From a virus, in the IMG/VR virus record IMGVR_UViG_3300028920_000047, positions 42,582 through 106,581 of that record: 64,000 bases of DNA. One strand, given 5' to 3'. Positions 1 to 62,455 of this stretch are shown one piece after another. The notes beneath the pieces are model-generated. The model was not told where the DNA came from. It was given only the letters and a program-made list of their open reading frames with translations, and did no database searches. The position numbers and the translations under genes are program-made. Position 1 is the first letter of the stretch. Each line of letters starts with the position of its first letter.

Positions 1-108
1 GGAATCGCTGATTATCCAACTATCGCCAGTAACATTATCCACAACATAGTTGTCCGCAAAACAAACCGAACACATAAGTAATAGTATCAAAAAAACAATC
101 ATTCTCAT
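1..108 (-). CDS. Partial (runs off window) secreted protein, paralogue of 3951..4319
   Basis: Manual translation MRMIVFLILLLMCSVCFADNYVVDNVTGDSWIISDS; nt 2-83 match nt 4210-4291 at 76/82 positions. Confidence 0.8.
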   Translation of the reverse strand, partial: MRMIVFLILLLMCSVCFADNYVVDNVTGDSWIISDS

Positions 109-209
109 TACTTATCACCTAACCAAAATTTTTGTGGAATGACATACATCAGCAATATTACAATCACCGCAAATAACGTAATTACTATTTCATCAATTAT
201 CTTTCTCAT
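108..209 (-). CDS. 33-aa single-pass membrane protein (not in ORF track)
   Basis: MRKIIDEIVITLFAVIVILLMYVIPQKFWLGDK; start and stop overlap both neighbours (TAATG coupling). Confidence 0.65.
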   Translation of the reverse strand: MRKIIDEIVITLFAVIVILLMYVIPQKFWLGDK

Positions 210-1657
210 TATTTATATAATCCTCGCAAAACAACATTATTGACAACATTATCCGAATTGTTGTATATGAAAAACTCGTCTGTATCATTCTTTATCTCAC
301 ACCAAGTTGCCGAGTATGGAGCTGAATCACCGCTATCAAGTTCAACAAAATAGTCAAGACCACGAAGGTCATCAAAAATTGTTGATACTGTGTTGGATAT
401 GTTTGGCACATAAACTGTCCAAGTGTCGTAAGGAGCAATACCAGAACCGCTATCAGAAACACAATTAGTATCCCACTCACGAGCATATACACCATACGCC
501 ACACCCTTTACATTAAGCGAATCAGCAAGTATTCCGCCGGCCACTTCTAAACTATCTGATGCTATATCATCTAAACCAACACCAATATTTCCATAACTTG
601 AAACTGTTACCCAATCAATTCCTCCGAGCTGGTCAGAAAATCTTAAAGAATTATCACTTGCTTTATGCCTTATTGTCCAGCCATCGGCAACTTCAGCTAA
701 CTGTAACATCGCATCTCCTGAACTTGCACCATTCCATCCTATTACGATTCGAGAACTATTTGCAATTCCATCTATAGTTTCTTTATGCCTAACTTGTAAC
801 CCTGCACCATTCGTTATATTTGCGCCTCCTATAACGGCTGTTTCGCTTATTTGGACAGTTCCTACAACATGAAAACTATCACTGGGATTAGCAATACCTA
901 TACCTACATGACTATCGCTGTATAGCCAGCCAGTTACTACATCAATATCCCACCAGCCGCCAACCAGTCCTGTTAATCCTGAACCATCGCCTATAAATGC
1001 ATTAGCATACACGCTGCTGGCAAATGTCGCACTGTCCGCAAATAAATCATCTGATAAATATAAATTCTGAAACTGATACATACCGGAACCACCAGTGCCT
1101 CCTAAATTCATTTGTAATCCACTTCCACGAGGAGCAATTCCCATACTACCAAGCCAAATAAGAGGAGTATCCGCTTTTCTAAATTCAAACATTTGACCAC
1201 TACCATTGAGATACCAAATTTTACCCTGAGTATCTCCAGGCGAACCTCCGGTAGCAATTTCAAAATATATAAAATTTGAATTATTGCTCGAAGCACCAAG
1301 CATTCCAATATTACCATCTCCAGTAGTAACTCCGTAAGGGTCCGTTCCATCACCCCAAATTTCTAAAGAATTGTTTGGTTTAGTAGAACCTATACTTACA
1401 TAGGAATCAGTCGATATAGCATTATCGGAAGCGCTAATAGTCCAATCTGAATCTCCTGAGCCAGAAGTTGAAATTTCAATACCGCTAATATATACCTTAC
1501 CGGTGTAAGTGGTTGTTCCCGCAGTAATACTTACACAAGAATCCGATACAGAAAGATATTTATTTAATTGTGTCAAATCATCAGACGTACCCACTTCAGA
1601 AAATAAAGGTAAAGTAAAAAGTAAACATAAAAATATAATTAAATAATTTTTCATCAT
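209..1657 (-). CDS. Signal-peptide-bearing tail-fibre-like beta protein
   Basis: N-terminal MKNYLIIFLCLLFTLPLFS; fibre motifs FIGDGSGLTGL, VGIGIANPS, GNIGVG; AGGAG RBS. Confidence 0.7.
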   Translation of the reverse strand: MMKNYLIIFLCLLFTLPLFSEVGTSDDLTQLNKYLSVSDSCVSITAGTTTYTGKVYISGIEISTSGSGDSDWTISASDNAISTDSYVSIGSTKPNNSLEIWGDGTDPYGVTTGDGNIGMLGASSNNSNFIYFEIATGGSPGDTQGKIWYLNGSGQMFEFRKADTPLIWLGSMGIAPRGSGLQMNLGGTGGSGMYQFQNLYLSDDLFADSATFASSVYANAFIGDGSGLTGLVGGWWDIDVVTGWLYSDSHVGIGIANPSDSFHVVGTVQISETAVIGGANITNGAGLQVRHKETIDGIANSSRIVIGWNGASSGDAMLQLAEVADGWTIRHKASDNSLRFSDQLGGIDWVTVSSYGNIGVGLDDIASDSLEVAGGILADSLNVKGVAYGVYAREWDTNCVSDSGSGIAPYDTWTVYVPNISNTVSTIFDDLRGLDYFVELDSGDSAPYSATWCEIKNDTDEFFIYNNSDNVVNNVVLRGLYK

Positions 1658-1663
1658 AATCTC

Positions 1664-3949
1664 CTATTCCGATAATCTCTTTATAAATCCACTTAATGTT
1701 TTATAATTTCTTAAATCTGGTTTAGTTGGTTCTTGTTTACAAATATGATTTACTGTTGAAGCTGAAGAAGAACTTTTATAGCCATAAATTTCATATGCTT
1801 TTTGTTTAAACTGAGTTACGTTTTTTATTGTTCTATAATTAAAAGTAGAAGTAGAATAATTAACAGTTATTGTATCTTCATCCATTCTGCCAAAACTATC
1901 ATTTAATCTGGCAGTAATGCTATCACCAATTCCCGATAACGCAACTGTACCTGACCAAGCGTTTGAAGAAATAGTAGCTATTGAATGAACTGTATCACTA
2001 CCTGTCAACACACTAATTTGAACTTCGTCTAAGTATAAAGCATCACCGTCGCCATTTCTATGAAAAGCTATTGCCTTAACTGTTTGTTCTGGATAATCTA
2101 TTTCTACCCAAGTATTTTTTGAATGGTTTAATTCTGTATCTATTTCTGTCCAATTTGTAGGGTCTCCTGCACCATCTGAAGAAATAGATATTGTACATTC
2201 CCAATCACTAATCATATAATTTTGTTTAGAAGCCCACACTCTTATTTGATTACTTGTAACAGCTGAAGTAAGTATAAGCTGAAACCAACTATGATTCCCT
2301 GGTGGTGGACCTGATTCTTTACAAACTTTTGTTGAACCATCTGGATAACTATCATTATATGCATTAGCTTCATTATACCAAGTTGCTCCGCCATCATTAT
2401 GACTATCAAAACAACGCCACTCATAATGCTCTAAACTCGTTTCATAAAGGTATAACTGAACAGTATCACCATCTTTACAGTTTACAGTAGTGCCACTAAC
2501 AATTATTATCTGAGTATTAGTATCGTGATTATCAGAAGGAGCATTTATACTAATGTCTATTGAACTATAATAATTGACGGTAATAGTATCCCAGTTAATA
2601 TTAGTACCATCCCAAAACTTGACTTGAACAGAATCACCAAGTCCAGTCAGACTTGCAGTTCCACTCCAAGCATCACTTGAAACTTCAACTGTATCTTGAT
2701 ATACTCCATTGACATATATTCCAACGCTATCGTGGTCGGTAGCGTCTGTTGTTACACCATCAATTTTTATCAGTTTTTGTGTTGTGTCGTGGTTATCAGC
2801 AGGATGTGAAAATGATATAGTCGGAACAGATGGAGAAGGATATTGACCATTAAAAAAAAGAGTAAAAAACGAATCGCCGGTCATATCAAACCCAACAGTA
2901 TCACTGCCAGTTACTAAAGGCACTGTTTCAGCACTATCACAGTTCGGCTCTAATAAATCTGTTCCTGATTCCCTTGCAAAAAGTTCAAGACCAACAGGAG
3001 CACCCGTAATATTATACACCACATTGTCCGTATCATTATAATATATATCTTGTCCAGCATCTTGATTAATATAATAATCATCAAAATATGAATTTCTAAT
3101 ATAGTTAGATTTGACTTGCGAATTATAATCTTTTTCATCGTGTTCATTAAGCCACGAACCTGCCGAATAACAGCTATCAAACACATTTGAATCGCAAGCA
3201 CCAGCACCAGTAAAAAATATGGTAGATTTCCACGCATCTATACCAGTCATTTTTACATTATATATATAATTATTCCTAAAATATGATGTATCATTTTTAT
3301 CATTATCGTATAGATGAGCATTCGAGATAGTATTTTTAAACACAGTATAAAAATTATAAGTAAAAACTGCTTTTTTACTAAAATAATCTGGTTCAGGCGC
3401 GCCTCCATTAAATCGCATAAATCCTATAAATCCAGTTGAATCACTTACAAGAGAAGTTATTAATTGGTTTTTGCCGGGATTTTGTTTTAACCTGCCTCCA
3501 TTAGAAATAAAAATAACCGGTTTTTCAATAATCAGTTGTGAACTGATATAATAACTATCGCCGATAAATGTTGAGTAGTCAAAAGTTCCAAATTTGATAC
3601 ACCACACAACGATTTGAGTTCCGTCAGCAGGGACAGTATCATCAGCATAATCATAAGCATAAGGAATTGATTTAAGCGGAGCAGACGGAGTCGCCTGATT
3701 AGCATTATTATTTGCGTCATTACCAGCCCCAAATGTAAGTGATGTATCAACCATAGTATATTCACCACAGGTGCAGTTCATAGATAAGTCGGCAAAATCA
3801 ACATTAACAAGAGGGAAAGCACAAGTTGTTTCACTTCCGCCATTAACAACTATTCTATACAATTTTTGTCCGTTGACATATATTGTATCCCAAGCATATA
3901 TATTTGATAAAAACAGCAATATAAATAATATAGATATTATAATTCTCAT
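1664..3949 (-). CDS. Secreted protein with beta-helix-like region, Ig-like repeats and an inserted carbohydrate-binding-like domain
   Basis: Likely start MRIIISILFILLFLSNIYA at 3949; N-terminal GND..ATPSAPLKSI motif typical of beta-helix proteins; PADNHDT..WSGT..GDS..DTITVNY repeats shared with 6098..12610. Confidence 0.7.
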   Translation of the reverse strand: MRIIISILFILLFLSNIYAWDTIYVNGQKLYRIVVNGGSETTCAFPLVNVDFADLSMNCTCGEYTMVDTSLTFGAGNDANNNANQATPSAPLKSIPYAYDYADDTVPADGTQIVVWCIKFGTFDYSTFIGDSYYISSQLIIEKPVIFISNGGRLKQNPGKNQLITSLVSDSTGFIGFMRFNGGAPEPDYFSKKAVFTYNFYTVFKNTISNAHLYDNDKNDTSYFRNNYIYNVKMTGIDAWKSTIFFTGAGACDSNVFDSCYSAGSWLNEHDEKDYNSQVKSNYIRNSYFDDYYINQDAGQDIYYNDTDNVVYNITGAPVGLELFARESGTDLLEPNCDSAETVPLVTGSDTVGFDMTGDSFFTLFFNGQYPSPSVPTISFSHPADNHDTTQKLIKIDGVTTDATDHDSVGIYVNGVYQDTVEVSSDAWSGTASLTGLGDSVQVKFWDGTNINWDTITVNYYSSIDISINAPSDNHDTNTQIIIVSGTTVNCKDGDTVQLYLYETSLEHYEWRCFDSHNDGGATWYNEANAYNDSYPDGSTKVCKESGPPPGNHSWFQLILTSAVTSNQIRVWASKQNYMISDWECTISISSDGAGDPTNWTEIDTELNHSKNTWVEIDYPEQTVKAIAFHRNGDGDALYLDEVQISVLTGSDTVHSIATISSNAWSGTVALSGIGDSITARLNDSFGRMDEDTITVNYSTSTFNYRTIKNVTQFKQKAYEIYGYKSSSSASTVNHICKQEPTKPDLRNYKTLSGFIKRLSE

Positions 3950-3950
3950 T

Positions 3951-4319
3951 TTATTTTCCTTCAAAGGTTACAACGTTTCCAGTTGCAATTCCACCAATAA
4001 TTATATATCGAAAATGCCATTGTATTTTAAATGGAAACTCATCACATTCAATTATTTTTTTTGTCGGTATTTTTGTTCTGATATATCCAGACCGAAATTG
4101 AAAATTTTCTTTAAATGCATAATATACTATATCAGAATCGTTTGTTGTTGAATATACATACAATTCGCTATCGGCAGTTACAATTTCAAACAATATATCA
4201 ACCGAATCTGAATCGCTAATTAACCAACTATCACCAGTAACATTATCCACAACATAGTTATCCGCAAAACAAACTGAATACATAAGTAATAAGATAAGTA
4301 TAAATAAAATTTTATTCAT
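3951..4319 (-). CDS. Small secreted protein
   Basis: Signal peptide ending VCFA; paralogue at window start. Confidence 0.7.
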   Translation of the reverse strand: MNKILFILILLLMYSVCFADNYVVDNVTGDSWLISDSDSVDILFEIVTADSELYVYSTTNDSDIVYYAFKENFQFRSGYIRTKIPTKKIIECDEFPFKIQWHFRYIIIGGIATGNVVTFEGK

Positions 4320-5957
4320 TTATTTTTCTCGTCCTCTTAACTTTATTGTATTAGCCGCATAATCTTGAATTGGTGACATAACATAATAACAATTTTTCCA
4401 CTCTACAACAGTTACTCCAAAAACAGGCTCAGTTATCCACACACCCTCAAAAGGTTCAGTATCACCTAATACCCAATTAACTGCTAATAACTCATAATCT
4501 ACATTAGAAATACAAAAACTATCAGCAGTAGTAAAAGTATCGGTATAAGCACAGGAATCAAAAGCTGTATTATAAATCCAAGTATCATTTGTTGGAAATA
4601 TTTTACAATAAACATTATTAGTAAAGGTAGCAGAATCAGCAAATATATCTTCTGTTAAATATAATGACCGCCATTGATAAATTCCGGAACCACCAGTACC
4701 GCCTAAATCTAATTCTCCAGTATACTCATCAGTTGGAGCTAACCCTAAAACACCCGCAGTAAATATTGTAGAATCACAATGAGCAAAATGAAACTGAACT
4801 CCGGAACCATTATGAAGCCATATTCTACCCTGAGTATCCCCATCTATTCCTTGTGGGTCAGCCTGAAAAATTAACTCATTAGATTCATACCCACTTGAAG
4901 TCTGTATTTTAACATTATTGCCATATACATGAATTTTTTCATCTGGTAACAAAGTACCAAACCCAACATAACCGTTTATACCCTCCATAAAAAAATTTGT
5001 TTGTCCACCAGAATTTGTAAAAGGTAATCCACCAGCAAGGCGGCAATTAAAAGCTAAATCTACAAATAAAGTCTCTCCCACTAAAGCATTTGAATCAATA
5101 TCCAAATTATTAAAATCACCTTGACCGGTTACGTCTAAATCACCTATAACATTTAAACTTCCTGCCATAGTATCTTCTTCGTAATTCCTCACAAAAGAAT
5201 CTGATAAACCAACTATATAATATCTACTAATATAAGATACCCTTAATATTTCACCGGTATCAGGAACATACCCTCCGTGGAAAGTTATCTCACTATCTCC
5301 ACTTTCATAATAATCTACACCAATAACTTTAATAACTCCATCAATAGTAACAATAGTTGAACTATCCTCCCAGACATCTAAAGGGTCTGTTAATTCAAAT
5401 ATAGTATCAAAACCATTAGCAGTATCAGAAAACTCCTGATTAACTTTCATTTGCCCTGTAAAAAAAGTATCAAAAGAAGCACCCGAAACACCTGTTAATA
5501 AAGAACCATCGCCAACAAAAGCATTCGCATATACTGTATTTGTAAATGTTGCCGAATCCGCTTTTAGCTCCTGAGTAAGACTACAACTGCCTGTTGAAAT
5601 TATTCCACCAACGGTTAAAGTATCAGTTGTTATTGTCCCTGTATTATCTATTTCTTCAGAATATATTTTAGTGGATATTATTACTGTACCACTAATAACT
5701 AATGTTCCTGATATATTTTCACTTTCAATAGAACCAGCGGTTAAAGTACCTCCAACTTCTAATTCTGTTCCAACAATTCCCGAATCTACTCTTATCCTTC
5801 CGGTTGAGGGATTATCCTTGACTTTTTCAATTTCCTGTTTATTTTGGGAAATTTTACCATCCTGGTCATAATTATAAGTAGTACCTTCAAAAAATCCATC
5901 AGCGTAAGAATAACCCAACAAAAAAGCAATCAATAATAATACAATTATATATTTCAT
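4320..5957 (-). CDS. Signal-peptide-bearing tail-fibre-like protein
   Basis: MKYIIVLLLIAFLLGYSYA; FVGDGSLLTGV, GYVGFGT; shares GDTQG..LGGTGGSG..ADSATF module with 209..1657. Confidence 0.7.
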   Translation of the reverse strand: MKYIIVLLLIAFLLGYSYADGFFEGTTYNYDQDGKISQNKQEIEKVKDNPSTGRIRVDSGIVGTELEVGGTLTAGSIESENISGTLVISGTVIISTKIYSEEIDNTGTITTDTLTVGGIISTGSCSLTQELKADSATFTNTVYANAFVGDGSLLTGVSGASFDTFFTGQMKVNQEFSDTANGFDTIFELTDPLDVWEDSSTIVTIDGVIKVIGVDYYESGDSEITFHGGYVPDTGEILRVSYISRYYIVGLSDSFVRNYEEDTMAGSLNVIGDLDVTGQGDFNNLDIDSNALVGETLFVDLAFNCRLAGGLPFTNSGGQTNFFMEGINGYVGFGTLLPDEKIHVYGNNVKIQTSSGYESNELIFQADPQGIDGDTQGRIWLHNGSGVQFHFAHCDSTIFTAGVLGLAPTDEYTGELDLGGTGGSGIYQWRSLYLTEDIFADSATFTNNVYCKIFPTNDTWIYNTAFDSCAYTDTFTTADSFCISNVDYELLAVNWVLGDTEPFEGVWITEPVFGVTVVEWKNCYYVMSPIQDYAANTIKLRGREK

Positions 5958-5981
5958 TTCTATTCTCCTAATACCAATAAT

Positions 5982-6098
5982 TTATCTTAATCTATTAACA
6001 AATTTTACAAATCCTTTTATTAATAAATATGTGACACCAATGCCACCTATAAATACCGCTACTAAAATTCCTACTATTAATAGACATTTTAAAAACAT
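5982..6098 (-). CDS. 38-aa single-pass membrane protein (not in ORF track)
   Basis: MFLKCLLIVGILVAVFIGGIGVTYLLIKGFVKFVNRLR; ATG overlaps upstream TAA. Confidence 0.65.
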   Translation of the reverse strand: MFLKCLLIVGILVAVFIGGIGVTYLLIKGFVKFVNRLR

Positions 6099-9000
6099 TA
6101 GGGTACTGTATAATATACTTTCTCTATTTCATCAACCCGCCCATCTGAACAAGCGGAACCATTCACTCCAAATCTTTCTATAATTATAGTATATACTGCT
6201 GTTTTAGCAATATATATTCTATGAGTAGTCCGAACATTTATCAATATTGAATCACTACCCGCTGAATTAGTGGCGTAACTCAATATTTGGGAATCATATA
6301 CTTCATACAAACCACTATCATACAAATCCTCCATAACTGCCGATAATTGAGCAATAGTGGAATCATTAAAAGCATGAATATCAACAACAACAATTGCTGG
6401 ATATGTATTCCCTTTACCATCCCAGTATGCTTGTAAAACCTTATTCTGAACAATTCTTTCCATGTAAGGTTTTGGATAGGTTGTTAATCGTGGATTACCA
6501 CTAAAGTTAACAGTTATGCTATCATAAGCAACCTGGCCGAACTGGTCAATTAGTTTTACAATAACACTATCACCCTTACCTTCCAAATTGGCATACCCTA
6601 TCCAGGAGCCACTATCACTAACAACATTAGTTGATGAAGATAAAACACTATTAACATATATTTGAACTGTATCTCCCAACCTTGTGTTCCTTGTAGTTCC
6701 CATTATTATAATTCTTGATACTATTGTGTCGTGAGAATTGGTATCTGGATATGTTATGGAAATATAAGACGGCGGTAATACATAACTAAATGTAATTGTA
6801 TCATATACCTTTGAATCGTATCTATTATATAATTTTACCCACACACTATCTCCAATCCCGTTTAATTGAAAAGTGCCGGACCAATTTTCATTATTTTCTG
6901 TCAAAATTATTGTATCGTTAATATTAGAGTTTACAAATATTAACAAAGTATCCCCAGCTATACTATAGTTTGAAGTTCCAAAAATAGTACCCGAATCTAC
7001 ATTTGTATCATTATTATCAATCATACTGGTTATAACAATTTCCGGATTATTAGCAAAACAATTTACCGTAATCGTGTCCTGAACTACTTGTCCAAACTGA
7101 TTAACCAATTTTGTACTAACACTGTCGCCATAAGAACTAACATAAACCGTTCCATTCCAATTATCACTATCCGCAGAGATTGTATATTTGCTATTCAAAA
7201 CATTATTTACATAAATATAAACAGTATCAACATTTGCAACTGTTTGACAAGTTGTACCACCAATGATAATTATATTTGTATTAGTATCATGATTATCAAC
7301 CGGATAAGTTATTTCTAACGATAAGGTCTCAGATAAATAATGTAATTGAATAGTGTCATTATATAAATTATTATTAAAAGAATTAGCAAGTTTAGCAACC
7401 ACTATCGGATATGGTGTACCGGCTATATAACAAGTTCCTGAAAAACTACCGCTATCAGAAGTTAAAATAATATTAGTATTCATAGTTCCAGTATAATCAA
7501 ATATTTGAACGGTATCTCCTACTTTCGAATTTTCTGTTGTACCTGATATAGTTATAACAGATATATTTGTATCATGCCCGGTATCTGGGGACATTATAGC
7601 CATTGTAAATACCGGATAATAACTTATAGTAATAGTATCATAATAACTTGTTTTATATAAAACACTTTCCAATTTTACAGTTACACTATCCCCCTTAGAA
7701 ACTACAACAACAGTTCCAGACCAGCTCATTGAATCAGACACAACATAAACTGTTGTATTCAAAATATTATTTACATAAATCGATATAGTATCTCCAAGCT
7801 GTGACCATTCGGTTGTCCCGTTTATCCAGTTCATACTAATATTAGTATCAGTATTAACATTACCAGGAATACCTATAGAAATAGTAGGTGTTGCATAATA
7901 ACTAATTGTTACCGTATTTCCTACAGTTCTCCCAAACTGGTCTTCCAGTGTTACAGAAATACTATCACTACCGCCAACAACCACTGTTCCAGACCAGGTT
8001 CCACTATCTGTTAATATATGAGTGATAGAATTAGTTAACCCATTAACACGTAAAACTATTGTATCACCGTTCCGAGAGTTTACGGTTGTTCCGTGAATAG
8101 TATTTATAGATATCTTAGTATCTGTATTATTAGAAGGATAACTTATCCTCGCCAATATAGTACCATAATAATCAACAGTTATCGTATCATAAATAACTGA
8201 ACCGGTTAACGCTGTTACTAATTTGACCGAAACATTATTACTTGTTTCGGATAAAGCCGCTGTCCCTGAAAAGGATTGATTATAATAAGTAATTGCCGCA
8301 TAAGTGTTTAAAACATTATCCACATAAATATAAATTGTATCACCTAACATAGTGTTTTTAGTGGTACAAATAACATTTATAATTTGTATATTTGTATCAT
8401 GGTTATTTGGAAAATTAGTAATAACAACAGATGGTGCACCAATATAATTTATAGTTATAGTATCATACACATCAGAATCAAAATTAGTTAATCTTGCTAA
8501 TATACTATCACCTATATTAGTTAGAGAAACGGTACCAGACCAGGAACCCGTATCAGCTGTCAAAGTATATGAAGAATTTAAAATACCATTAACATATAAA
8601 CGTACCCTATCCCCAACTTTTGAGCTCTTCGAAGTCCCATAAATTGTTATAACTTTAACACAAGTATCATAAGCAGTAGCTGGCGTATCTATACCCACAC
8701 CAGGATTGGTTTGATATTTATTAACAGTTATTGTATCGTATAAAATATTCCCGAAAGAATCATGTAAAACAACCCACAAACTATCACCTTTTGAGGAAAC
8801 ACCGGCTGTACCTGACCAGTTTGCATTATCTGAAACAATCACAACAGTAGTATTTAAATTTGTATTCGTATATATTTCCACAGTATCGCCCGCCTTAGTA
8901 GGACTGGCAATTCCTCCAATAATAAAAAAGCTGTTATTAGTATCATGATTATCAGCCGGTACAGTTATTTGTATTGTGGGTATCGAGTAATAATTGATTG

Positions 9001-12000
9001 TTCTTGTTTCATAATATACCCTGCCAAAACTATCCTCCAATTTTACTACTAAGCTATCACCAATACCTACAAATATTATTGGTGTATCAACCCAATTACC
9101 AGAATCCCCAACAATTCTTGCAGTTGCCTGTAAAATAGTATTTACATATATTCTAACTAAATCCGAATCCCTGGTATTATAGGAAGTACCTGAAATAACA
9201 TTCTTCTGTATATTAGTATCTGTCGGATTGGATAAATTTATTCCGATATTAGGAGTCCCAAAGTAATTTATGGATATTGTATCATATGCTGTTCTATTAT
9301 ATGTATCATGTAGAATAGCAACGATACTATCATTGTAACCACTAATAGCTACTGTACCTGACCAGGTGCCACTATCCCCGGTTAAAAGATAAACTGTACT
9401 TCTTGTATACATATTTGTAATTTCAACAGTATCCCCACCATGACATTCAACCGTAGTTCCAGATATTGTTATTGTTGATAAATAGGTATCATGGTTATTA
9501 GCCGGTGATGTAATAGCAATATCAGGAGTCTTAAAATAATCTATAACAATTGTATCATAAGTGTTTCTTCCAAATTGGTCATGTAATTTTACCACCAGAT
9601 TACTACCATAATCACTAAAGGCAGCAGTACCGAAAAAATTTCCATTTAGACTTGTTATAATAACAGTAGTATTTAAAACATTATTAACAAATATTTCAAC
9701 AGTATCATTCACCTGAACATCGTAAGAAGTCCCTCCTATATTTATTATAGAGATATATGTATCATGATTGTCCGCAGGATAAGTAATAGTTAAAACGGGA
9801 TTAGCAAAGTAATTAATTGTTATTGTATCATAAGCAACAGAGTCACCGCCATGATTGGTATCTACTCCTATATATGGTTCCATTTTTAGCCACAATTTAT
9901 CAGCCTGGCCGGTTAGAGTGGCGGTACCATTAAAAGTTCCTGTTTCATTCGTAGTTACAAACGATGTACATAAGCTTGAATTTACATATAAATATATGGT
10001 ATCATTAGAGCTATTACCGACCCAATCAATATTTACGTTAGATATAGAGTCACTATTGGTATCAGTATTATTAGTTATATTAGTAATACCGGCCCAATGT
10101 AGAAAAACAGAAATTGTATCATACAAAATTGAGTCAAACCTCGTTTCTAATTTTACCCACACACTATCGGACATATTACTAAGAGCTACAGTACAACCCC
10201 AACTACCACTATCAGCAGTTAAATTTGTTTGTGTCTGGTAACTACTTCCAACATATATTTTTATAGTATCACCAATAGAAGTATTATAAGTGGTCCCAAT
10301 AAAAGTAGGAGACTTAGTATTAGTATCATATTCATCAATCATACTAAAACTAATTTGCGGTTGTGCAAAATATCCAACAGAAATAGTATCATATTGAATA
10401 TTACCACTATCGGTTAAGATTTTTACCCACACCCGACTATTACCGTGCTGTAAACTAACAGTACCAGAAAAATTACCACTATCCGAAAGTAACACAAATA
10501 AACAATTAAACTGGGTATCACAATAGATATAAACAGTATCACCAGCATAAGTATTATAAGTAGTCCCAGATACATTAGCAATTTTTGTATTTGTATCAGT
10601 CCCATCACTCGGACTTGTGATTTGTACTTCAACATAACTAACATTTATAGTATCATACCCATTTCGACCAAACTGGTCATGAACCTCAACAGTAATTGAA
10701 TCATATCTATTTGTAATGTAAGCAGTGCCGGAAAAATTATTATCATATCCTGAAATAACAGCAATGGAGTTTAAAACATTATTTACATATATAACTACAG
10801 TGTCGCCACTACTGGTACCCACCGTTGTTCCGGTAATAAGATTAGTTTTTAAATTTGTATCAGAATTATGTTCGGGAACAATAATACCAGCCAAAGGGGT
10901 ATCAATAAAATTTAAAACTATTGTATCATAAGCTCGAGCATTAAATTGATTATACATTATCACCCATACCGAATCACCAAGATTGGATATATAAGCGGTT
11001 CCTGAAAAATTACCAGAATCAGAAGCCAAAACGACTGTGGTATTAACTGTAGTATTCGTATATATAACCACAGTATCTCCGGTTTTACTACCATAAGTGG
11101 TACCATTGATTGTTATTATATTCACTATAGTATCATGATTATTACTGGGTTCATTTATTTGTACATTAGCTATTCCCCAATATTTTATTGTAATAGTATC
11201 ATATACTTTTACTCCAAATTGGTCAATCAATATTACCATAACACTATCCCCTACCTGGCTAAATAGAGAAACAGTACCAGACCAATTTTGAGAATCAGCG
11301 GTTATAGTAAATATATCAGTACTATCACCAGCACTGTTATAAATGTATACATAGGAACCAAGCCCTACTTCAGCAGTTGTCCCTCCTATATTTACTATGT
11401 TAATATTTGTATCGTGATTATTTGTTGGATAACTAATACCAATTGAAGGTGTGTTATAATAATTAACAACGTTAGTATCGGTCGCCGTTCTACCAAACTG
11501 GTCATGTAGAACTACCCAAACACTATCATTTAGATTTGATACCGAAACAGTACCGGCCCAGGAACCATTATAACCTGAAACGATAACCGTTGTGCAATAT
11601 GTAGCGTTTGTATATATAACAACAGTATCATTAGTGATAGCATGAGTAACAGAGCCCCCTATATTTATTATACCAGTATTTGTGTCATGATTATTTCCAG
11701 GATAGTTTATAGTTATTGTTGGAGTACTAAAATAATTTACTGTTATAGTGTCCCGAGCTGTACCGGAATAACCATTAAAAATAACTATTACCGATTCACC
11801 ATAATTTGATACACACGCCGTACCTGACCAATTACCGGTATCATCTACTATAACAATAGTTGTATTTAATCCTACATCAGTATATATTTGAATCGTATCT
11901 CCGGCCTGGGCGTCATTAGTGGTTCCATAAATAGTAAATATTTGAATATCAGTATCTGAATTATTAGCAGGTAGGGTAATATTGATACCAGGATTTCCCC

Positions 12001-12610
12001 AATAATCAATAGTTATAGTATCCTGGGCCACATCCCCAAAAACACTTTCTAATAAAACTGAAACAGATTCTCCCCGGCTATTTAAAGCAGCTGTTCCACA
12101 CCACGACGGGCTGTCGATATCTAACGTAAAATAAATAGAGGTACAAATAGCACCATCAACATAAACATGAATATGACTACCGGTACCACAATTAGCTGTA
12201 GTACCACCTATAATAACAATAGAAACATTTGTATCATGATTATCAAGAGGATATGTTATAGCAACACCAATAGAAGAAGTATCATAATAGTCAACATGAA
12301 TAGTATCATAACCAATCAATATACCATCATAGAATCTGGTAACAATTATGTTACCAATACCAGTTAAAGCGGCAGTACCTGAAAAAGAACTATCAGCCGC
12401 GATACTATTACTTGATTGCAAAATATTATTAGTATAAATATGAACAGAATCACCTATATCATAAACACTATTAGCGGTTCCTTGTATAGTAATTACCCTA
12501 ACATTAGTATCATGATTATCCACAGGTGAGGTTATAGTTACCGTATCCGCGAAAATCTGGTAAATAAAAAAAGCAAAAAACAATAATAATAAAATAACAA
12601 TTTTTTTCAT
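6098..12610 (-). CDS. 2170-aa secreted protein of about 22 tandem Ig-like (~90 aa) repeats
   Basis: Signal peptide MKKIVILLLLFFAFFIYQIFA; repeat consensus ITxPxNNHDTNxxIIxIxGT..GDTVxIYVN..DSGxWSGT..GDSVxVxLxDQFG..YDTITVNY. Confidence 0.85.
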   Translation of the reverse strand: MKKIVILLLLFFAFFIYQIFADTVTITSPVDNHDTNVRVITIQGTANSVYDIGDSVHIYTNNILQSSNSIAADSSFSGTAALTGIGNIIVTRFYDGILIGYDTIHVDYYDTSSIGVAITYPLDNHDTNVSIVIIGGTTANCGTGSHIHVYVDGAICTSIYFTLDIDSPSWCGTAALNSRGESVSVLLESVFGDVAQDTITIDYWGNPGINITLPANNSDTDIQIFTIYGTTNDAQAGDTIQIYTDVGLNTTIVIVDDTGNWSGTACVSNYGESVIVIFNGYSGTARDTITVNYFSTPTITINYPGNNHDTNTGIINIGGSVTHAITNDTVVIYTNATYCTTVIVSGYNGSWAGTVSVSNLNDSVWVVLHDQFGRTATDTNVVNYYNTPSIGISYPTNNHDTNINIVNIGGTTAEVGLGSYVYIYNSAGDSTDIFTITADSQNWSGTVSLFSQVGDSVMVILIDQFGVKVYDTITIKYWGIANVQINEPSNNHDTIVNIITINGTTYGSKTGDTVVIYTNTTVNTTVVLASDSGNFSGTAYISNLGDSVWVIMYNQFNARAYDTIVLNFIDTPLAGIIVPEHNSDTNLKTNLITGTTVGTSSGDTVVIYVNNVLNSIAVISGYDNNFSGTAYITNRYDSITVEVHDQFGRNGYDTINVSYVEVQITSPSDGTDTNTKIANVSGTTYNTYAGDTVYIYCDTQFNCLFVLLSDSGNFSGTVSLQHGNSRVWVKILTDSGNIQYDTISVGYFAQPQISFSMIDEYDTNTKSPTFIGTTYNTSIGDTIKIYVGSSYQTQTNLTADSGSWGCTVALSNMSDSVWVKLETRFDSILYDTISVFLHWAGITNITNNTDTNSDSISNVNIDWVGNSSNDTIYLYVNSSLCTSFVTTNETGTFNGTATLTGQADKLWLKMEPYIGVDTNHGGDSVAYDTITINYFANPVLTITYPADNHDTYISIINIGGTSYDVQVNDTVEIFVNNVLNTTVIITSLNGNFFGTAAFSDYGSNLVVKLHDQFGRNTYDTIVIDYFKTPDIAITSPANNHDTYLSTITISGTTVECHGGDTVEITNMYTRSTVYLLTGDSGTWSGTVAISGYNDSIVAILHDTYNRTAYDTISINYFGTPNIGINLSNPTDTNIQKNVISGTSYNTRDSDLVRIYVNTILQATARIVGDSGNWVDTPIIFVGIGDSLVVKLEDSFGRVYYETRTINYYSIPTIQITVPADNHDTNNSFFIIGGIASPTKAGDTVEIYTNTNLNTTVVIVSDNANWSGTAGVSSKGDSLWVVLHDSFGNILYDTITVNKYQTNPGVGIDTPATAYDTCVKVITIYGTSKSSKVGDRVRLYVNGILNSSYTLTADTGSWSGTVSLTNIGDSILARLTNFDSDVYDTITINYIGAPSVVITNFPNNHDTNIQIINVICTTKNTMLGDTIYIYVDNVLNTYAAITYYNQSFSGTAALSETSNNVSVKLVTALTGSVIYDTITVDYYGTILARISYPSNNTDTKISINTIHGTTVNSRNGDTIVLRVNGLTNSITHILTDSGTWSGTVVVGGSDSISVTLEDQFGRTVGNTVTISYYATPTISIGIPGNVNTDTNISMNWINGTTEWSQLGDTISIYVNNILNTTVYVVSDSMSWSGTVVVVSKGDSVTVKLESVLYKTSYYDTITISYYPVFTMAIMSPDTGHDTNISVITISGTTENSKVGDTVQIFDYTGTMNTNIILTSDSGSFSGTCYIAGTPYPIVVAKLANSFNNNLYNDTIQLHYLSETLSLEITYPVDNHDTNTNIIIIGGTTCQTVANVDTVYIYVNNVLNSKYTISADSDNWNGTVYVSSYGDSVSTKLVNQFGQVVQDTITVNCFANNPEIVITSMIDNNDTNVDSGTIFGTSNYSIAGDTLLIFVNSNINDTIILTENNENWSGTFQLNGIGDSVWVKLYNRYDSKVYDTITFSYVLPPSYISITYPDTNSHDTIVSRIIIMGTTRNTRLGDTVQIYVNSVLSSSTNVVSDSGSWIGYANLEGKGDSVIVKLIDQFGQVAYDSITVNFSGNPRLTTYPKPYMERIVQNKVLQAYWDGKGNTYPAIVVVDIHAFNDSTIAQLSAVMEDLYDSGLYEVYDSQILSYATNSAGSDSILINVRTTHRIYIAKTAVYTIIIERFGVNGSACSDGRVDEIEKVYYTVP

Positions 12611-59983: not shown

Positions 59984-61213
59984 TTAATAACCAATAGCCA
60001 AAATTTCCGGAGTTATGGTACCACCTACCAAATCAGTACTATCCGTTAATATTACACATTGAGTTTGAGTAACTAATGATGGTATCACTAAATTCATTAA
60101 ATTAATATTACCAGCTAAATTTGCCTGGGTACTAACAACAAACACATGTAAACAAGCTGTAGGAAATGTTAAAGGAAAAAGTATAACTTGACCAACACCG
60201 TGGTCATCAGCAGCCGCTACACCTGTTGCCCACTGTATTACTAATCCATCATTAAATTGAATATAACCATTAGTCAAATAACTGCTTTGAGCTACACCGC
60301 CGGAAGCATTATCAACATAGTTTTTTGTAGCGGCGTCTTGTGCCATTGTGGGGTCTAATAACGCTTTTATTTGTTTACTTTGGGCATCTATATCATCTGC
60401 TGATTTTAACCTTGCTCCAATAGCGCCAGCAATCTCCCACAGAGAAGCAAATGTAGCGATTTGACTATCGGTATAATTCTTTGTAGAAGCATCCTGCGGA
60501 TTAGACGGGTCAGTTACATTTTTAATCACACTTGTATCCGCATCAATATCTCCTGTTCCTTTAGGGGATATTATAATATCAATATTAGCATCACTTGAAC
60601 CCTCACTTTCTATTTTTACTCCGGAACCACTGGCAGCGTTACTTATTTTAAGATTATTTTCAGCCGAAGCGGTTATACCAAAAGTTAAAAGTTCGTTTCC
60701 ATCATAATCTATAATTTCCATGAATTTTCTCGCGTCCTTTACAGTATCCACTCCGGCGTAAAAATTTCCATCACCAGGAAGGGCGAAATTTTGTCCTAAT
60801 GTGACCGTAGCTAACAATATATCATTATCTTCAATATTTTGTACAGCCTTAAATACTATATAATTATTACTATCATCAGCATGAGTATACCTGGCTACTA
60901 TGTTTGTGTTTAATGGTGAAACACCCAGACCATCTAATGCCGACAACGACTCTGCAATATAATCCGCTTCTACAATACCAGTAGTAAGTATACCGGTTAC
61001 CAATCTTCTGTCAGATGCTATTAAATCATATATAGCTATTTTACCAGCACTTATAGCTAAAATATTATTGGCGCCGCCGTTAGAAACCTCAAGACCCTGG
61101 TATACACCGGGTCTAATAACTTTATGTAACCATTTAGATATTTTTAACTCGGTTAAAGTTTCTTCATAATTCATTACTGTATCAAATTTACCATTCCAGG
61201 TATATCCTGCCAT
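59984..61213 (-). CDS. Tail fibre/baseplate protein (no signal peptide)
   Basis: DP..QDA.TKNY.D repeats; C-terminal NGYIQF.DGLVIQW..FPLTFPTAC..LAIGY gp53-like domain. Confidence 0.75.
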   Translation of the reverse strand: MAGYTWNGKFDTVMNYEETLTELKISKWLHKVIRPGVYQGLEVSNGGANNILAISAGKIAIYDLIASDRRLVTGILTTGIVEADYIAESLSALDGLGVSPLNTNIVARYTHADDSNNYIVFKAVQNIEDNDILLATVTLGQNFALPGDGNFYAGVDTVKDARKFMEIIDYDGNELLTFGITASAENNLKISNAASGSGVKIESEGSSDANIDIIISPKGTGDIDADTSVIKNVTDPSNPQDASTKNYTDSQIATFASLWEIAGAIGARLKSADDIDAQSKQIKALLDPTMAQDAATKNYVDNASGGVAQSSYLTNGYIQFNDGLVIQWATGVAAADDHGVGQVILFPLTFPTACLHVFVVSTQANLAGNINLMNLVIPSLVTQTQCVILTDSTDLVGGTITPEILAIGY

Positions 61214-61255: not shown

Positions 61256-62455
61256 TTATTCCCATAATCTACACACTACTATTTTAAATTTATTACATTG
61301 AATTGGGGTCGGCGTCCAAAACGCTTCAGCTTCTATATAGTTTACAGTTGATGTATTTTTAAAATAAATATTACTACCATCAATTTGTAACGACCAACCC
61401 GCAAAAGATACGCCATTATGTTCAAAAGAACGAGCAATATACCAAACCGAATCTGAATTATATCCTATAAATACTGTAACCGTATATGAATCAGGATTAA
61501 ATGTTTCACCAATTCCTAATGTTGTATAATTATCATTATTGGGAACATTTTGCCAACCGGAGTTATAAACAAGTTTCGGATATAATCCTGAGGAAGTGAT
61601 AAACCCGCTATCATTAGCGAGAGAAGAGATACCTGAATCAGATTCAATAAAATCCGGTGGTGATTTTATTTTATCCCAACCCACATCACCGGTAATATTT
61701 TGAGCACTTATATTTCCTGAAAAAATTATAGTATTGCCTGTAATATCTGATGAAATAGTAGGGCTATTAAACCCTATATAAATAGTTTCCGCTCTTATAC
61801 TACCGGCAACTGTTAAAGAGTCACCATTATATATTACATTTGTCCCAATTCCTATACATTGTACAATTGTATATAAAGTGGTTTCACCCGCTACAGTCCA
61901 GGAATCCCCACCGCCACTAATTCCGGTCAAATGTGCACCATTACCTTCAAAAAAACCTCCCGCAACAATATTACCGGTAGCAGAAAAACTGCCAATAATT
62001 GTATCAGATTCATAATTTTTTATATAACTATCAGCTTGAAAAACCATAAGTTGAACAATATTGCTATCATTTATAGTTAATCCACCAACAGCGGTAACAC
62101 CTGTTAATCCTGAACCATCTCCGTGAAAGCTTCCGCCAATGAATGAATCTGCTGTTATAGAATTAGATATAAGAGCAGTAGCTGTTATTGTTCCGCCGCG
62201 GCCTTCTAAAGCTATAGAATTGCCCACCGTTACTGAACAAGCGTCAGCATCTAAATAAATTAACTCTCCTGACGTATCTCCTACCTGCATATAAGTATAA
62301 ATAATTACTGTATCTGTACCGGAATCATAAGTAGTATGGGATTGATATACTACACCTTCCGGCATTAAAAATCTGTTACTCCAGTTAAATGAATATAAAT
62401 CTGAAAAACAAAATGTAAAAAATAATAGTAAAAGTAATAAATATAAAATTTTCAT
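61256..62455 (-). CDS. Signal-peptide-bearing tail-fibre-like protein
   Basis: MKILYLLLLLLFFTFCFS; FHGDGSGLTGV, FEGNGAHLTGI, IGIGT, SSLANDSGFIT, YNSGW. Confidence 0.7.
   Translation of the reverse strand: MKILYLLLLLLFFTFCFSDLYSFNWSNRFLMPEGVVYQSHTTYDSGTDTVIIYTYMQVGDTSGELIYLDADACSVTVGNSIALEGRGGTITATALISNSITADSFIGGSFHGDGSGLTGVTAVGGLTINDSNIVQLMVFQADSYIKNYESDTIIGSFSATGNIVAGGFFEGNGAHLTGISGGGDSWTVAGETTLYTIVQCIGIGTNVIYNGDSLTVAGSIRAETIYIGFNSPTISSDITGNTIIFSGNISAQNITGDVGWDKIKSPPDFIESDSGISSLANDSGFITSSGLYPKLVYNSGWQNVPNNDNYTTLGIGETFNPDSYTVTVFIGYNSDSVWYIARSFEHNGVSFAGWSLQIDGSNIYFKNTSTVNYIEAEAFWTPTPIQCNKFKIVVCRLWE

What the first reader, a model, noticed from the sequence alone, without database searches (positions are those of the whole stretch)
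1..12610. Phage-encoded exported fibre/Ig proteins loaded with D-S/D-T motifs: candidate 'secrete, glycosylate, then assemble' system
Seen: five complete late-arm proteins (482, ~761, 122, 545, 2170 aa), a partial one at 1-108 and the 399-aa protein at 61256-62455 all start with Sec-type signal peptides. The larger ones look like tail-fibre or Ig-like virion proteins, which normally fold in the cytoplasm. Manual counts of Asp followed by Ser/Thr: 16 in 482 aa, 20 in 545 aa, 5 of 10 Asp in 122 aa, about 25 in 761 aa, 13 of 23 Asp in 399 aa, and 4-5 per repeat in the 2170-aa protein. The neighbouring tail proteins without signal peptides have only about 6 of 33 (409 aa) and 1 of 18 (238 aa). Known: D-(S/T)-(A/I/L/V/M/T) is the sequon of the periplasmic general O-glycosylation system of Bacteroidota. 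Inference: the phage routes these proteins through the host periplasm to be glycosylated, then adds them to virions at lysis or displays them on the infected cell (glycan cloak, adhesion or exclusion). Strong AGGAGG sites suggest an FCB-type host other than classical Bacteroidota.
Basis: partly seen in the sequence, partly recalled or inferred. Interest (0 to 1): 0.88.

Follow-up and report, generated by a model that had tools for sequence, protein, structure and literature searches.

The report
Exported phage fibre proteins rich in Asp-Ser/Thr
A large uncultured marine-sediment phage gives eight fibre-like or adhesin-like late proteins bacterial export signals, and only these proteins carry 2-3 times the chance number of Asp-Ser/Thr pairs, so they very probably mature outside the cytoplasm, which is unusual for tailed-phage fibre proteins; whether the pairs are sugar-attachment sites or calcium-binding turns is still open.

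Summary
The window is the right part of a 106.6-kb myovirus-type contig, estimated 49% complete, from a marine-sediment metagenome. Eight late proteins start with Sec-type signal peptides. Together they hold 225 D-[ST] pairs against 84.5 expected from shuffling. The other 121 ORFs hold 167 against 186, and this includes two tail-fibre proteins of similar composition that lack signals.

The 2170-aa protein is a signal peptide, 22 Ig-like repeats and a C-terminal domain. Its repeat family also builds giant adhesins with T9SS sorting domains in an uncultured bacterial MAG with 25% GC that uses Shine-Dalgarno sites and lacks SusD.

In this lineage and in the phage, Asp was gained directly in front of Ser/Thr residues that are older and conserved. 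D-[ST] is also 1.9-fold enriched outside the repeats of the bacterial homologues, but not in homologues from other phyla. This favours selection on the D-(S/T) O-glycosylation motif.

Ca2+-binding or structural turns are a nearly equal rival. Neither glycosylation nor attachment to virions is shown. The scan has noted the same pattern before in phages of Bacteroidota.

The parts
1..108 (-). N-terminal 36 codons (signal peptide MRMIVFLILLLMCSVCFA|DN...) of a 121-aa small exported protein. The gene runs off the left edge of the window. It is a paralogue (about 90% identity) of the 122-aa protein.
209..1657 (-). 482-aa fibre-like exported protein. It has a signal peptide, the motif F-x-G-D-G-S-x-L-T-G, and repeated [ST]-D-S-hydrophobic-x-hydrophobic-x-G units. 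D-[ST] is 16 vs 7.8 expected.
   Evidence: No Pfam, PHROG or NCBIfam match. No homologue outside this genome.
1664..3964 (-). 766-aa exported protein; the probable true start is the ATG at 3949. Order of parts: signal peptide, a roughly 350-aa N-terminal domain, then Ig-like repeats. One repeat is interrupted by a domain of about 115 aa. It is 81% identical to the 706-aa paralogue upstream of the window. D-[ST] is 26 vs 12.5.
3951..4319 (-). 122-aa small exported protein. 5 of its 10 Asp are followed by Ser.
4320..5957 (-). 545-aa fibre-like exported protein. It shares a 137-aa region (39% identity) and the GDGSxLTG motif with the 482-aa protein. D-[ST] is 20 vs 7.7.
   Evidence: No outside homologue. 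Its nearest protein-atlas clusters are viral, which is a lead only.
6098..12610 (-). 2170-aa exported rod. Signal peptide at 12548-12610; 22 tandem Ig-like repeats of about 90 aa at 6503-12553; a 134-aa C-terminal domain at 6101-6502. D-[ST] is 115 vs 36.9, at five conserved sites per repeat.
   Evidence: The two-repeat (didomain) model has pLDDT 94.8 (59). The fold is a generic tandem Ig/FnIII type (62). The C-terminal domain is 35% identical to that of P0041 (81).
61256..62455 (-). 399-aa fibre-like exported protein with two GxGxxLTG motifs. It lies between two tail-fibre-type genes that lack signals. D-[ST] is 13 vs 4.8.
59984..61213 (-). Internal control: 409-aa tail-fibre protein (Gp53-like C-terminal domain) with no signal peptide. 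It is acidic and S/T-rich like the exported set, but D-[ST] is only 6 vs 5.0.
62468..63184 (-). Internal control: 238-aa protein that shares its N-terminal domain with the 409-aa fibre and has no signal peptide. D-[ST] is 1 vs 2.8.

Best explanation
The phage encodes a late-expressed cassette of Sec-exported, adhesin-like proteins:
- a rod of 22 Ig-like domains (2170 aa);
- two paralogous three-gene sets, each made of a fibre-like protein (545 or 482 aa), a small protein (122 or 121 aa) and an Ig-repeat protein (766 or 706 aa);
- a 399-aa fibre-like protein inside the tail-fibre operon.

Shown: all have signal peptides with signal-peptidase-I-type sites. The Ig repeat belongs to a family that otherwise builds giant adhesins with T9SS sorting domains in an uncultured, very AT-rich, SD-using bacterial lineage, which is the probable host clade.

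Inferred: the proteins cross the inner membrane, lose the leader and fold in the periplasm. None has a T9SS sorting domain, so they stay there until lysis releases them. After lysis they act as accessory adhesins or fibres. I put attachment to virions at about 35%. Otherwise they act on the envelope, on debris or on neighbouring cells.

The D-[ST] excess tracks the compartment (exported proteins only) and the lineage (phage plus T9SS-lineage homologues, not homologues from other phyla), and it does not track fold. It arose by gain of Asp directly in front of older conserved Ser/Thr. I therefore read it as selection for the D-(S/T)-X O-glycosylation motif of a Bacteroidota-type general glycosylation system in the host periplasm, giving glycan-coated rods and fibres. 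Export itself is well supported (about 0.85). The glycosylation step is the weakest link.
For: Export:
- Leaders on 8 of 8 proteins.
- Leaders conserved in diverged homologues.
- A related phage fragment, L030, has three signal-peptide proteins within 5.5 kb. One of them, P0041, is a signal peptide plus 3 repeats plus the same C-terminal domain.
- The domain family is found with T9SS or dockerin C-termini.

Lineage:
- MAG G001 has 46 repeats scoring up to 121 bits against the phage profile. The phage's own repeats score 75-116 bits.
- G001 has 22 T9SS type-A sorting domains, an SprA-like gene, PorV/PorP-like barrels next to the genes with sorting domains, 24.7% GC and SD use.

Motif:
- 225 vs 84.5 in exported proteins against 167 vs 186 in all others. 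The acidic fibres without signals show no excess.
- DS is the top dipeptide of 400.
- At the five repeat sites, S/T is old: at sites 1, 2 and 5 it is present in 0.82-1.0 of distant homologues (0.34 and 0.56 at sites 3 and 4).
- Asp at -1 rises from 0.03/0.27/0.02/0.06/0.55 in distant homologues, to 0.75/0.91/0.17/0.72/0.90 in the T9SS lineage, to 1.0/0.91/0.73/0.68/0.91 in the phage.
- The non-repeat parts of T9SS-lineage homologues have 282 vs 151.6 (1.86x, z 10.6). Homologues from other phyla have 260 vs 255.5.
- Distant phage relatives found through the portal protein show neither signal-peptide fibres nor an excess.

Literature:
- The motif is D(S/T)X, with X anything but R, H, K, W or Y (PMC10897501).
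- T9SS cargo of Tannerella forsythia is heavily O-glycosylated, and sites are said to evolve easily by single mutations (PMC8729774).
Against: - No glycan is shown. The system is known only in Bacteroidota and its transferase is unknown, so it cannot be searched for (PMC12871550).
- The candidate host lineage is not classical Bacteroidota: it uses SD and has no SusD. It is linked to the phage only by domain similarity, GC content and SD use.
- In a 424-kb sample of G001, ordinary signal-peptide proteins show only 1.11x.
- The sequence context looks structural. A small residue (G/S/A/N) sits at -1 in 42 of 65 sites against 21 expected. Aromatic residues are enriched at +2. The residues reported as not glycosylated (R, H, K, W, Y) are not depleted, 9 vs 8.3.
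- Each repeat site prefers Thr or Ser in a fixed way. Two sites lie inside beta-strands A' and G of the model.
- Homologues give sub-threshold hits to NCBIfam Ca_tandemer.
- Proteins with RTX repeats reach 1.3-1.6x through Ca2+-binding GNDTL motifs, so calcium motifs can produce the same statistic.
- No tail-fibre family match and no virion-attachment domain was found in any signal-peptide protein.
Confidence: 0.4

Rival explanations
1. The proteins are exported in the same way, but the D-[ST] pairs are structural. Asp at the last loop position before a beta-strand binds Ca2+ or caps the turn. This stiffens the tandem Ig rod and the fibre repeats, as in the Ca2+-stabilised extender regions of RTX adhesins. 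These proteins can fold only outside the Ca2+-poor cytoplasm, which would itself explain the signal peptides.
For: - Bacterial homologues hit NCBIfam Ca_tandemer at E 1e-10 to 8e-12, 42-46 bits against a cut-off of 50.
- The D-[ST] positions are the most conserved columns of repeats that are only 31-50% identical.
- By the strand order of the confident model, the Asp residues fall at loop ends on both tips of the domain, that is at the inter-domain junctions, and in the terminal strands A' and G.
- In MhLap each linker Ca2+ is held by three Asp, one Asn and a Thr carbonyl (PMC7493085). Ca2+ also clamps the terminal strands (PMC5380327).
- The context [GSAN]-D-[ST]-aromatic/aliphatic is a turn-then-strand signature.
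- RTX GNDTL motifs give the same statistical excess.
- The proteins are acidic, with D far above E.
- The sample is marine.
Against: - Calcium ligation does not require Ser/Thr at +1, yet all five best-conserved Asp positions sit directly before a conserved S/T. The less conserved Asp at positions 12 and 76 do not.
- The excess also appears in six unrelated phage protein families and in the non-repeat parts of the bacterial homologues. It is absent from extracellular adhesin homologues of other phyla.
- The tail fibres without signals have the same acidic composition but no excess.
- The phage repeats themselves give no Ca_tandemer hit.
- Coordinates of the model could not be inspected, so clustering of the Asp residues is inferred from topology only.
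Confidence: 0.35
2. The cassette is host-derived cargo and not part of the virion. The phage captured adhesin modules from its host and expresses them to change the envelope of the infected cell, for example to exclude other phages, aggregate cells, act as decoys or help lysis. The D-[ST] richness is simply inherited from the host adhesin family.
For: - The cassette lies between the two halves of a split terminase gene, together with membrane, lipoprotein and lysozyme-like genes.
- The Ig repeat is as close to the repeats of MAG G001 as the phage repeats are to each other.
- Distant phage relatives lack such a cassette.
- No tail-fibre family match.
Against: - Only the Ig repeat has bacterial homologues. 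The 482-aa and 545-aa proteins and the N-terminal domain of the 766-aa protein were not found in G001, and the 482-aa and 545-aa proteins were not found in the 5.8-billion-protein collection. Inheritance therefore cannot explain their DS excess (z 8.1).
- The fibre-type motifs, and the pattern of fast-diverging fibre genes next to slowly diverging partner genes (39% vs 81-90% identity), resemble receptor-binding modules.
- The 399-aa member sits inside the tail-fibre operon.
- Site 3 (D-S-G) is a phage-specific gain: 0.68 in the phage vs 0.11 in the bacterial homologues.
Confidence: 0.3
3. The excess is an artefact of composition, of repeats, or of wrongly called genes.
For: The proteins are S/T-rich (15-24%) and D-rich. 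The 2170-aa protein is internally repetitive, and two pairs are recent paralogues, so the counts are not independent.
Against: - Within-protein shuffles remove composition effects.
- Six independent families remain after paralogues are collapsed, and each is significant on its own.
- The repeats are only 31-50% identical, yet they keep these columns.
- Controls with matching composition show no excess.
- The ORFs are long, have SD sites, and have homologues with the same architecture.
Confidence: 0.02

Closest known systems
[quoted passage not shown]
   Same: Proteins exported by Sec. The D-(S/T)-X core motif occurs at many sites per protein. The domain relatives are T9SS cargo adhesins. The motif is said to evolve easily by single mutations, which matches the Asp gains seen here.
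   Different: No glycan is shown. The proteins are phage-encoded. The probable host lineage uses SD and lacks SusD, so it lies outside the classes where the system has been demonstrated. There are five invariant sites per 90-aa domain, some inside strands, which is denser and more rigidly conserved than reported glycosites.
Ca2+-stabilised tandem Ig-like extender regions of RTX adhesins: MpIBP RII, MhLap, AhLap, SiiE (PMC4083281, PMC7493085, PMC5380327, PMC5466336)
   Same: Long runs of 90-105-aa beta-sandwich repeats with highly conserved Asp/Asn. The proteins are extracellular. Homologues give sub-threshold hits to NCBIfam Ca_tandemer.
   Different: Export uses an N-terminal Sec leader and not a C-terminal T1SS signal. 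There are no RTX repeats. The phage repeats do not hit the model. The conserved acidic positions differ, and here each is followed by Ser/Thr.
Giant adhesins with T9SS sorting domains in the uncultured MAG DAONJL01 (G001; P0009 and P0012 clusters), comparable to SprB-type adhesins with adjacent PorP/SprF-like barrels
   Same: The same Ig-repeat subfamily with the same D-T/D-S sites. N-terminal signal peptides. Very AT-rich coding sequence.
   Different: The phage proteins lack any T9SS C-terminal sorting domain. They end instead in a 134-aa domain shared only with phage-context homologue P0041.
Phage proteins with Ig-like domains on virions (T4 Hoc and the Ig-like domains surveyed by Fraser et al. 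2006; from my own knowledge, not checked here)
   Same: Ig-like domains in late or structural gene regions of tailed phages, thought to mediate weak adhesion.
   Different: Those proteins have no signal peptide and assemble in the cytoplasm. Here there are 22 repeats behind a Sec leader.
Exported phage accessory proteins (lambda Lom and Bor, T5 Llp, Cor; from my own knowledge, not checked here)
   Same: Encoded by a phage, carrying Sec or lipoprotein leaders, acting in the host envelope.
   Different: Those are small single-domain envelope proteins. They are not a 15-kb set of fibre-like and rod-like proteins in the late operon.
Earlier reports of this scan: tail-fibre-like proteins with signal peptides and many sequons in phages of Bacteroidota (e1-5348879, e1-5850078, e1-5892990, e1-5839005 and others)
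   Same: The same pair of features: a Sec leader plus a 2.5-3.5-fold excess of D-S/T motifs on fibre-like phage proteins.
   Different: Here eight proteins are involved, not one or two. The phage is a myovirus-type genome with T4-like replication genes. Its genes use SD sites. The Ig repeat could be traced to a T9SS-bearing lineage outside the SusD-bearing Bacteroidia. A Ca2+ rival was raised by tests done here.

Membership tests
Sec (signal peptidase I) signal peptide | A positive n-region, a hydrophobic h-region of 10-15 residues, and small residues at -1/-3 | tested here: met
   My hydropathy/charge screen flags all eight. The sites are CFA|D, SYA|D, IFA|D, IYA|W, CFS|D and LFS|E. SignalP was not available, and cleavage itself cannot be tested with these tools.
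Substrate of Bacteroidota general O-glycosylation | D-(S/T)-X motifs present in an extracytoplasmic protein | tested here: met
   225 motifs against 84.5 expected in the exported set.
Substrate of Bacteroidota general O-glycosylation | The host belongs to a lineage that has the system | tested here: inconclusive
   The candidate host lineage has T9SS parts but uses SD and has no SusD. The transferase is undiscovered (PMC12871550), so no marker gene exists to search for.
Substrate of Bacteroidota general O-glycosylation | A glycan attached at Ser/Thr of the motif | not testable with these tools
   This needs mass spectrometry.
Ca2+-stabilised repeat adhesin (NCBIfam NF033510, Ca_tandemer) | A score above the model's cut-off of 50 bits | tested here: not met
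   The phage repeats give no hit. Bacterial homologues reach 28-46 bits.
Ca2+-stabilised repeat adhesin (NCBIfam NF033510, Ca_tandemer) | Tandem beta-sandwich repeats with conserved acidic residues at the domain junctions | tested here: inconclusive
   The tandem Ig fold is confident and the Asp columns are conserved.
T9SS cargo | A C-terminal sorting domain, type A (TIGR04183) or type B (TIGR04131) | tested here: not met
   No match in the phage at E <= 1. G001 has 22 type-A matches.
Phage tail fibre | A match to a tail-fibre family, or a recognisable virion-attachment domain | tested here: not met
   No Pfam, PHROG or NCBIfam hit for the 482-, 545-, 399- or 122-aa proteins. The neighbouring 409-aa protein without a signal does match. 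Only short fibre-type motifs and viral neighbours in the protein atlas point that way.
Phage tail fibre | Presence in purified virions | not testable with these tools
   This needs virion proteomics of an uncultured phage.

The most novel reading that the evidence does not exclude
A tailed phage makes part of its host-recognition apparatus outside the cytoplasm. Fibres and a 22-domain Ig rod are exported by Sec and O-glycosylated at D-(S/T) by the host's general glycosylation system in the periplasm. They join the particles only at lysis. This would also mean that motif-directed O-glycosylation reaches beyond the classical Bacteroidota into an SD-using, T9SS-bearing candidate lineage, and that phages exploit it.
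Probability: 0.15. Interest if true: 0.9.

Novelty: new variant of a known kind. Interest (0 to 1): 0.66.

Why it matters
Tailed-phage particles are thought to be built entirely in the cytoplasm. A whole set of fibre-like and rod-like late proteins with export signals challenges that view, or else reveals a large class of phage-made envelope effectors.

The Asp-before-Ser/Thr signal tracks the compartment and the lineage but not the fold. That makes it a cheap sequence marker that can be tested:
- If it marks glycosylation, it extends the only motif-directed bacterial O-glycosylation system to new lineages and to phage proteins, and it could help find the unknown transferase.
- If it marks Ca2+ sites, it defines a new subfamily of calcium-dependent extender domains shared by T9SS adhesins and phages.

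Either way, the shared repeat links an orphan sediment phage to a candidate host lineage.

Tried and rejected
**Searches that found nothing**
- Nucleotide search of phage records: no match.
- Close-relative scans of viral contigs with the 545-aa protein, P0041 and P0010: nothing.
- The word-indexed protein search found no homologue of the 545-aa or 482-aa proteins outside this genome.
- The 482-aa and 545-aa proteins and the N-terminal domain of the 766-aa protein were not found in G001.

**Tools and analyses that failed or were too generic**
- The single-sequence fold of the 545-aa protein was useless: pLDDT 31.
The genomic context of P0010 and P0043 therefore could not be read. P0041's context came from the metagenome scan.
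- The profile search of PDB sequences gave only chance hits. The Foldseek hits were generic Ig/FnIII tandems and did not single out a Ca2+-binding family.

**Ideas considered and dropped**
- The narrow Bacteroides sequon D[ST][AILVMT]. Outside the repeats the third residue is not enriched for this set (30 vs 28.8; 21 vs 23.9). This is not a refutation, because the motif is now known as D(S/T)X.
- The Campylobacter-type N-glycosylation sequon D/E-x-N-x-S/T. It fits only some repeats (DTNVS, DTNIS), by inspection.
- A Thr-Gln ester-bond domain based on the H-D-T motif. His is present in only about 60% of repeats and the Gln is poorly conserved.
- T9SS export of the phage proteins. They have no sorting domain.

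**Not attempted**
- A search for CRISPR spacers linking G001 to the phage.

Full report
**What the window is.** The 64-kb window is positions 42582-106581 of a single linear contig of 106,581 bp. CheckV rates the contig 49% complete. The only public run that holds it is a marine-sediment metagenome, which is probably its own source.

It is a tailed phage with a contractile tail. It encodes a tail sheath, major head protein, portal and head proteases. Its replication set is T4-like: a family-A DNA polymerase, a RecA/UvsX-like protein, UvsW, a fused SbcCD, a clamp loader, DnaB and a primase. GC content is 25-35%. No phage record is similar at the DNA level, and the polymerase is at most 30% identical to known phages.

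On the minus strand lie ORFs of 482, 766, 122, 545 and 2170 aa, plus the first 36 codons of a 121-aa ORF at 1-108. Just upstream of the window the cassette continues with the rest of the 121-aa gene and a 706-aa gene. A 399-aa ORF lies at 61256-62455.

All eight begin with K/R, a strongly hydrophobic stretch of 12-15 residues, and a small residue at -1. The N-terminal helix is the only confident element in a single-sequence model of the 545-aa protein.

Against within-protein shuffles the z-scores run from 2.6 to 15.7. The seven highest z-scores among all 129 ORFs belong to these proteins. In total they hold 225 pairs against 84.5 expected, while the remaining 121 ORFs hold 167 against 186.

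An unbiased scan of all 400 dipeptides puts DS first in the non-repeat proteins (40 vs 12) and DT and DS first in the 2170-aa protein.

Two neighbouring tail proteins without signals, of 409 and 238 aa, are a good internal control. They are as acidic, and nearly as rich in Ser/Thr, as the exported set but show no excess: 6 vs 5.0 and 1 vs 2.8.

**Anatomy.**
- The 2170-aa protein is a signal peptide, 22 tandem repeats of about 90 aa that are 31-50% identical to each other, and a 134-aa C-terminal domain.
- A two-repeat model built from the repeat alignment is confident (pLDDT 94.8, pTM 0.80). It shows two beta-sandwiches of eight strands each, a generic tandem Ig/FnIII fold.
- The most conserved columns are exactly the D-[ST] pairs: H-D-T (invariant), G-D-T-V, D-S-G, G-D-S-V and Y-D-T-I.
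- The 706-aa and 766-aa proteins carry three and two such repeats after an N-terminal domain of about 350 aa. In the 766-aa protein one repeat is split by an inserted domain of about 115 aa.
- The cassette is a duplicated three-gene unit. The fibre-like genes (545 and 482 aa) are 39% identical over 137 aa. The small genes (122 and 121 aa) are about 90% identical. The Ig-repeat genes (766 and 706 aa) are 81% identical.
- The 482-, 545- and 399-aa proteins share short motifs typical of fibres (F-x-G-D-G-S-x-L-T-G). They match no Pfam, PHROG or NCBIfam family. The 482-aa and 545-aa proteins have no homologue outside this genome at the sensitivity available.

**Relatives of the repeat, and a candidate host lineage.** A profile search of 1.84 billion representative proteins found 199 proteins with the repeat, 47 of them at E < 1e-30.

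The close hits are giant, very AT-rich surface proteins. Many have signal peptides. Their C-termini are T9SS-type sorting domains, dockerins or lamin-tail domains. Where named, they come from unclassified 'bacterium' MAGs, one 'Bacteroidales bacterium' and one 'Candidatus Dependentiae bacterium'.

One such genome could be reached: MAG DAONJL01, called G001 here, about 3.0 Mb.
- It has 46 copies of the repeat scoring up to 121 bits against the phage profile. The phage's own repeats score 75-116 bits.
- It has 22 T9SS type-A sorting domains on ORFs of up to 5967 aa.
- It has an SprA-like gene.
- It has more than ten PorV/PorP-like barrels, many directly beside the genes with sorting domains.
- It has no SusD.
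- A 424-kb sample has 24.7% GC, and a 5-mer SD core lies upstream of 25% of crudely called ORFs against a 1.6% background.

The phage has such SD cores upstream of 53% of its genes against a 3% background. The link rests on domain similarity, base composition and SD use, not on a direct host signal.

The phage proteins have no T9SS sorting domain. After Sec export they should therefore remain periplasmic until lysis.

**Conservation in another phage.** P0041 has a signal peptide, three repeats and a C-terminal domain 35% identical to that of the 2170-aa protein. It lies on a 5.5-kb metagenome contig (L030) that looks phage-derived from its gene content. There it is followed by a fibre-like protein with a signal peptide and preceded, three genes upstream, by another signal-peptide protein.

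The leaders are thus conserved across deep divergence. The D-[ST] excess there is weaker: 17 vs 10.9 in P0041, and none in the partial fibre.

Seven phages distantly related through the portal protein (24-27% identity) have no such cassette near the portal, and their D-[ST] ratios are 0.75-1.0.

**What the D-[ST] excess means.** Four comparisons bear on this.

1. Column by column, the Ser/Thr at sites 1, 2 and 5 is ancient. It is present in 82-100% of distant homologues from Proteobacteria-like, Gram-positive-like and myxobacteria-like adhesins. The Asp in front of it is not ancient. Its frequency at the five sites is:
   - distant homologues: 0.03/0.27/0.02/0.06/0.55;
   - T9SS-lineage proteins: 0.75/0.91/0.17/0.72/0.90;
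   - the phage: 1.0/0.91/0.73/0.68/0.91.

   Asp was therefore gained directly before pre-existing Ser/Thr at four or five separate sites.

2. In the T9SS-lineage homologues the parts outside the repeats are also enriched: 282 vs 151.6, with 19 of 20 proteins above 1.2x. Homologues from other phyla show 260 vs 255.5.

3. In the phage the excess covers six unrelated protein families and follows the signal peptide.

4. The known motif-directed O-glycosylation of Bacteroidota recognises D(S/T)X with nearly any X (PMC10897501). It heavily decorates T9SS cargo in Tannerella forsythia, and sites are said to arise easily by single mutations (PMC8729774).

Together these points favour selection on the dipeptide as a modification motif.

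**The main rival.** Conserved Asp/Asn residues are the hallmark of Ca2+-stabilised extender repeats in RTX adhesins. There, ions in the linkers and at the terminal strands stiffen the rod (PMC7493085, PMC5380327, PMC4083281).
- Three bacterial homologues give sub-threshold hits to NCBIfam Ca_tandemer.
- By strand order, the conserved Asp residues fall at loop ends on both tips of the domain and in strands A' and G.
- In the non-repeat proteins the context is [G/S/A/N]-D-[S/T]-aromatic or aliphatic. The residues reported as not glycosylated (R, H, K, W, Y) are not depleted at the third position.
- Each repeat site has a fixed preference for Thr or for Ser.
- RTX blocks (GNDTL) in two distant homologues produce a 1.3-1.6x excess on their own.
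- Ordinary signal-peptide proteins of G001 show only 1.11x.
- The glycosyl transferase of the Bacteroidota system is unknown (PMC12871550), so the host lineage cannot be checked for it.

I rate the glycosylation reading slightly above the Ca2+/structural reading, about 0.40 to 0.35. The two are not mutually exclusive.

**Where the proteins end up.** The tools cannot settle whether they end up on virions.

For a virion or receptor-binding role:
- they sit in the late operon;
- the 399-aa member lies between tail-fibre genes;
- they carry fibre-type motifs;
- the fibre genes diverge fast while their partner genes diverge slowly.

Against:
- there is no family match and no attachment domain;
- the Ig repeat is as close to the host adhesins' repeats as the phage repeats are to each other;
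- the cassette sits, with membrane, lipoprotein and lysozyme-like genes, between the two halves of a split terminase gene.

I put attachment to virions after lysis at roughly one in three.

**Novelty.** I found no paper describing tail-fibre-like proteins of tailed phages with Sec leaders. This scan has reported the same pair of features several times in phages of Bacteroidota.

This case adds four things:
- a much larger exported set;
- an SD-using host context;
- a traceable bacterial domain family;
- the Asp-gain analysis and the Ca2+ alternative.

I class it as a new variant of known kinds, namely exported phage accessory proteins, Ig-like phage adhesins and D-S/T-rich T9SS-type surface proteins. 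The more radical reading, assembly outside the cytoplasm, is kept as the novel case.

Noticed in passing
window 12928-13848 (-) and L002:14886-16325 (-) (contig 34886-36325): The large terminase appears split. The 306-aa N-part ends ...GDDVIAG followed by a Cys-initiated segment of about 100 aa (CWTADTVF...). The 479-aa C-part starts with about 40 aa ending ...IIVHN|C. This looks like a split intein with its halves about 19 kb apart, and the signal-peptide cassette lies between them. Other first-reader notes on this genome say the same.
   Followed up: partly
window 32496-42230 (+): A probable 7-deazaguanine DNA-modification cluster. It includes GTP cyclohydrolase (38428-39288, PHROG E 3e-63), a Vut_1/YhhQ-type transporter (39551-40525, Pfam E 2e-53) and a weak TGT/DpdA-like match (41100-42230). 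ORFs that look like QueC (37614-38423), QueD (32496-33014) and QueE (33361-34032) were judged by eye only.
   Followed up: partly
window 1664-3964 (-), residues about 524-639: One Ig repeat of the 766-aa protein is interrupted by an inserted domain of about 115 aa that is absent from the 706-aa paralogue. The repeat profile matches positions 3-41 before the insert and 34-90 after it. This is a nested domain insertion of unknown fold.
   Followed up: no
window 63204-63998 (-): The first gene of the tail-fibre operon consists of at least ten tandem units of 22 aa (NQLTSLEGAPQKVGRDFDC...), with a Pfam LRR_4 hit. It has no signal peptide and no D-[ST] pairs at all.
   Followed up: no
window 14914-16707 (+): A 597-aa protein with an N-terminal hydrophobic segment, zinc-ribbon-like CxxC pairs and an acidic run of about 110 residues that is almost pure Glu/Asp. 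It has a weak PHROG match to a single-strand DNA-binding protein.
   Followed up: no
L002:18524-18895 (-) (contig 38524-38895) and window 48778-49304 (+): Three small ORFs with lipoprotein-type leaders (…FLIHC|S, …FITSC|V, …FFYTC|A). The first lies among membrane proteins and a lysozyme-like ORF next to the cassette and may belong to a lysis or spanin set. None shows a D-[ST] excess.
   Followed up: no
G001 (MAG DAONJL01), e.g. C41:18686-19567, C4:113954-114871, C22:13352-14302: In the candidate host lineage, each giant adhesin gene with a T9SS type-A sorting domain is followed by a PorV/PorP-like outer-membrane barrel gene. This resembles the SprB-SprF arrangement, but in a genome with 25% GC that uses SD sites and has no SusD.
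   Followed up: partly
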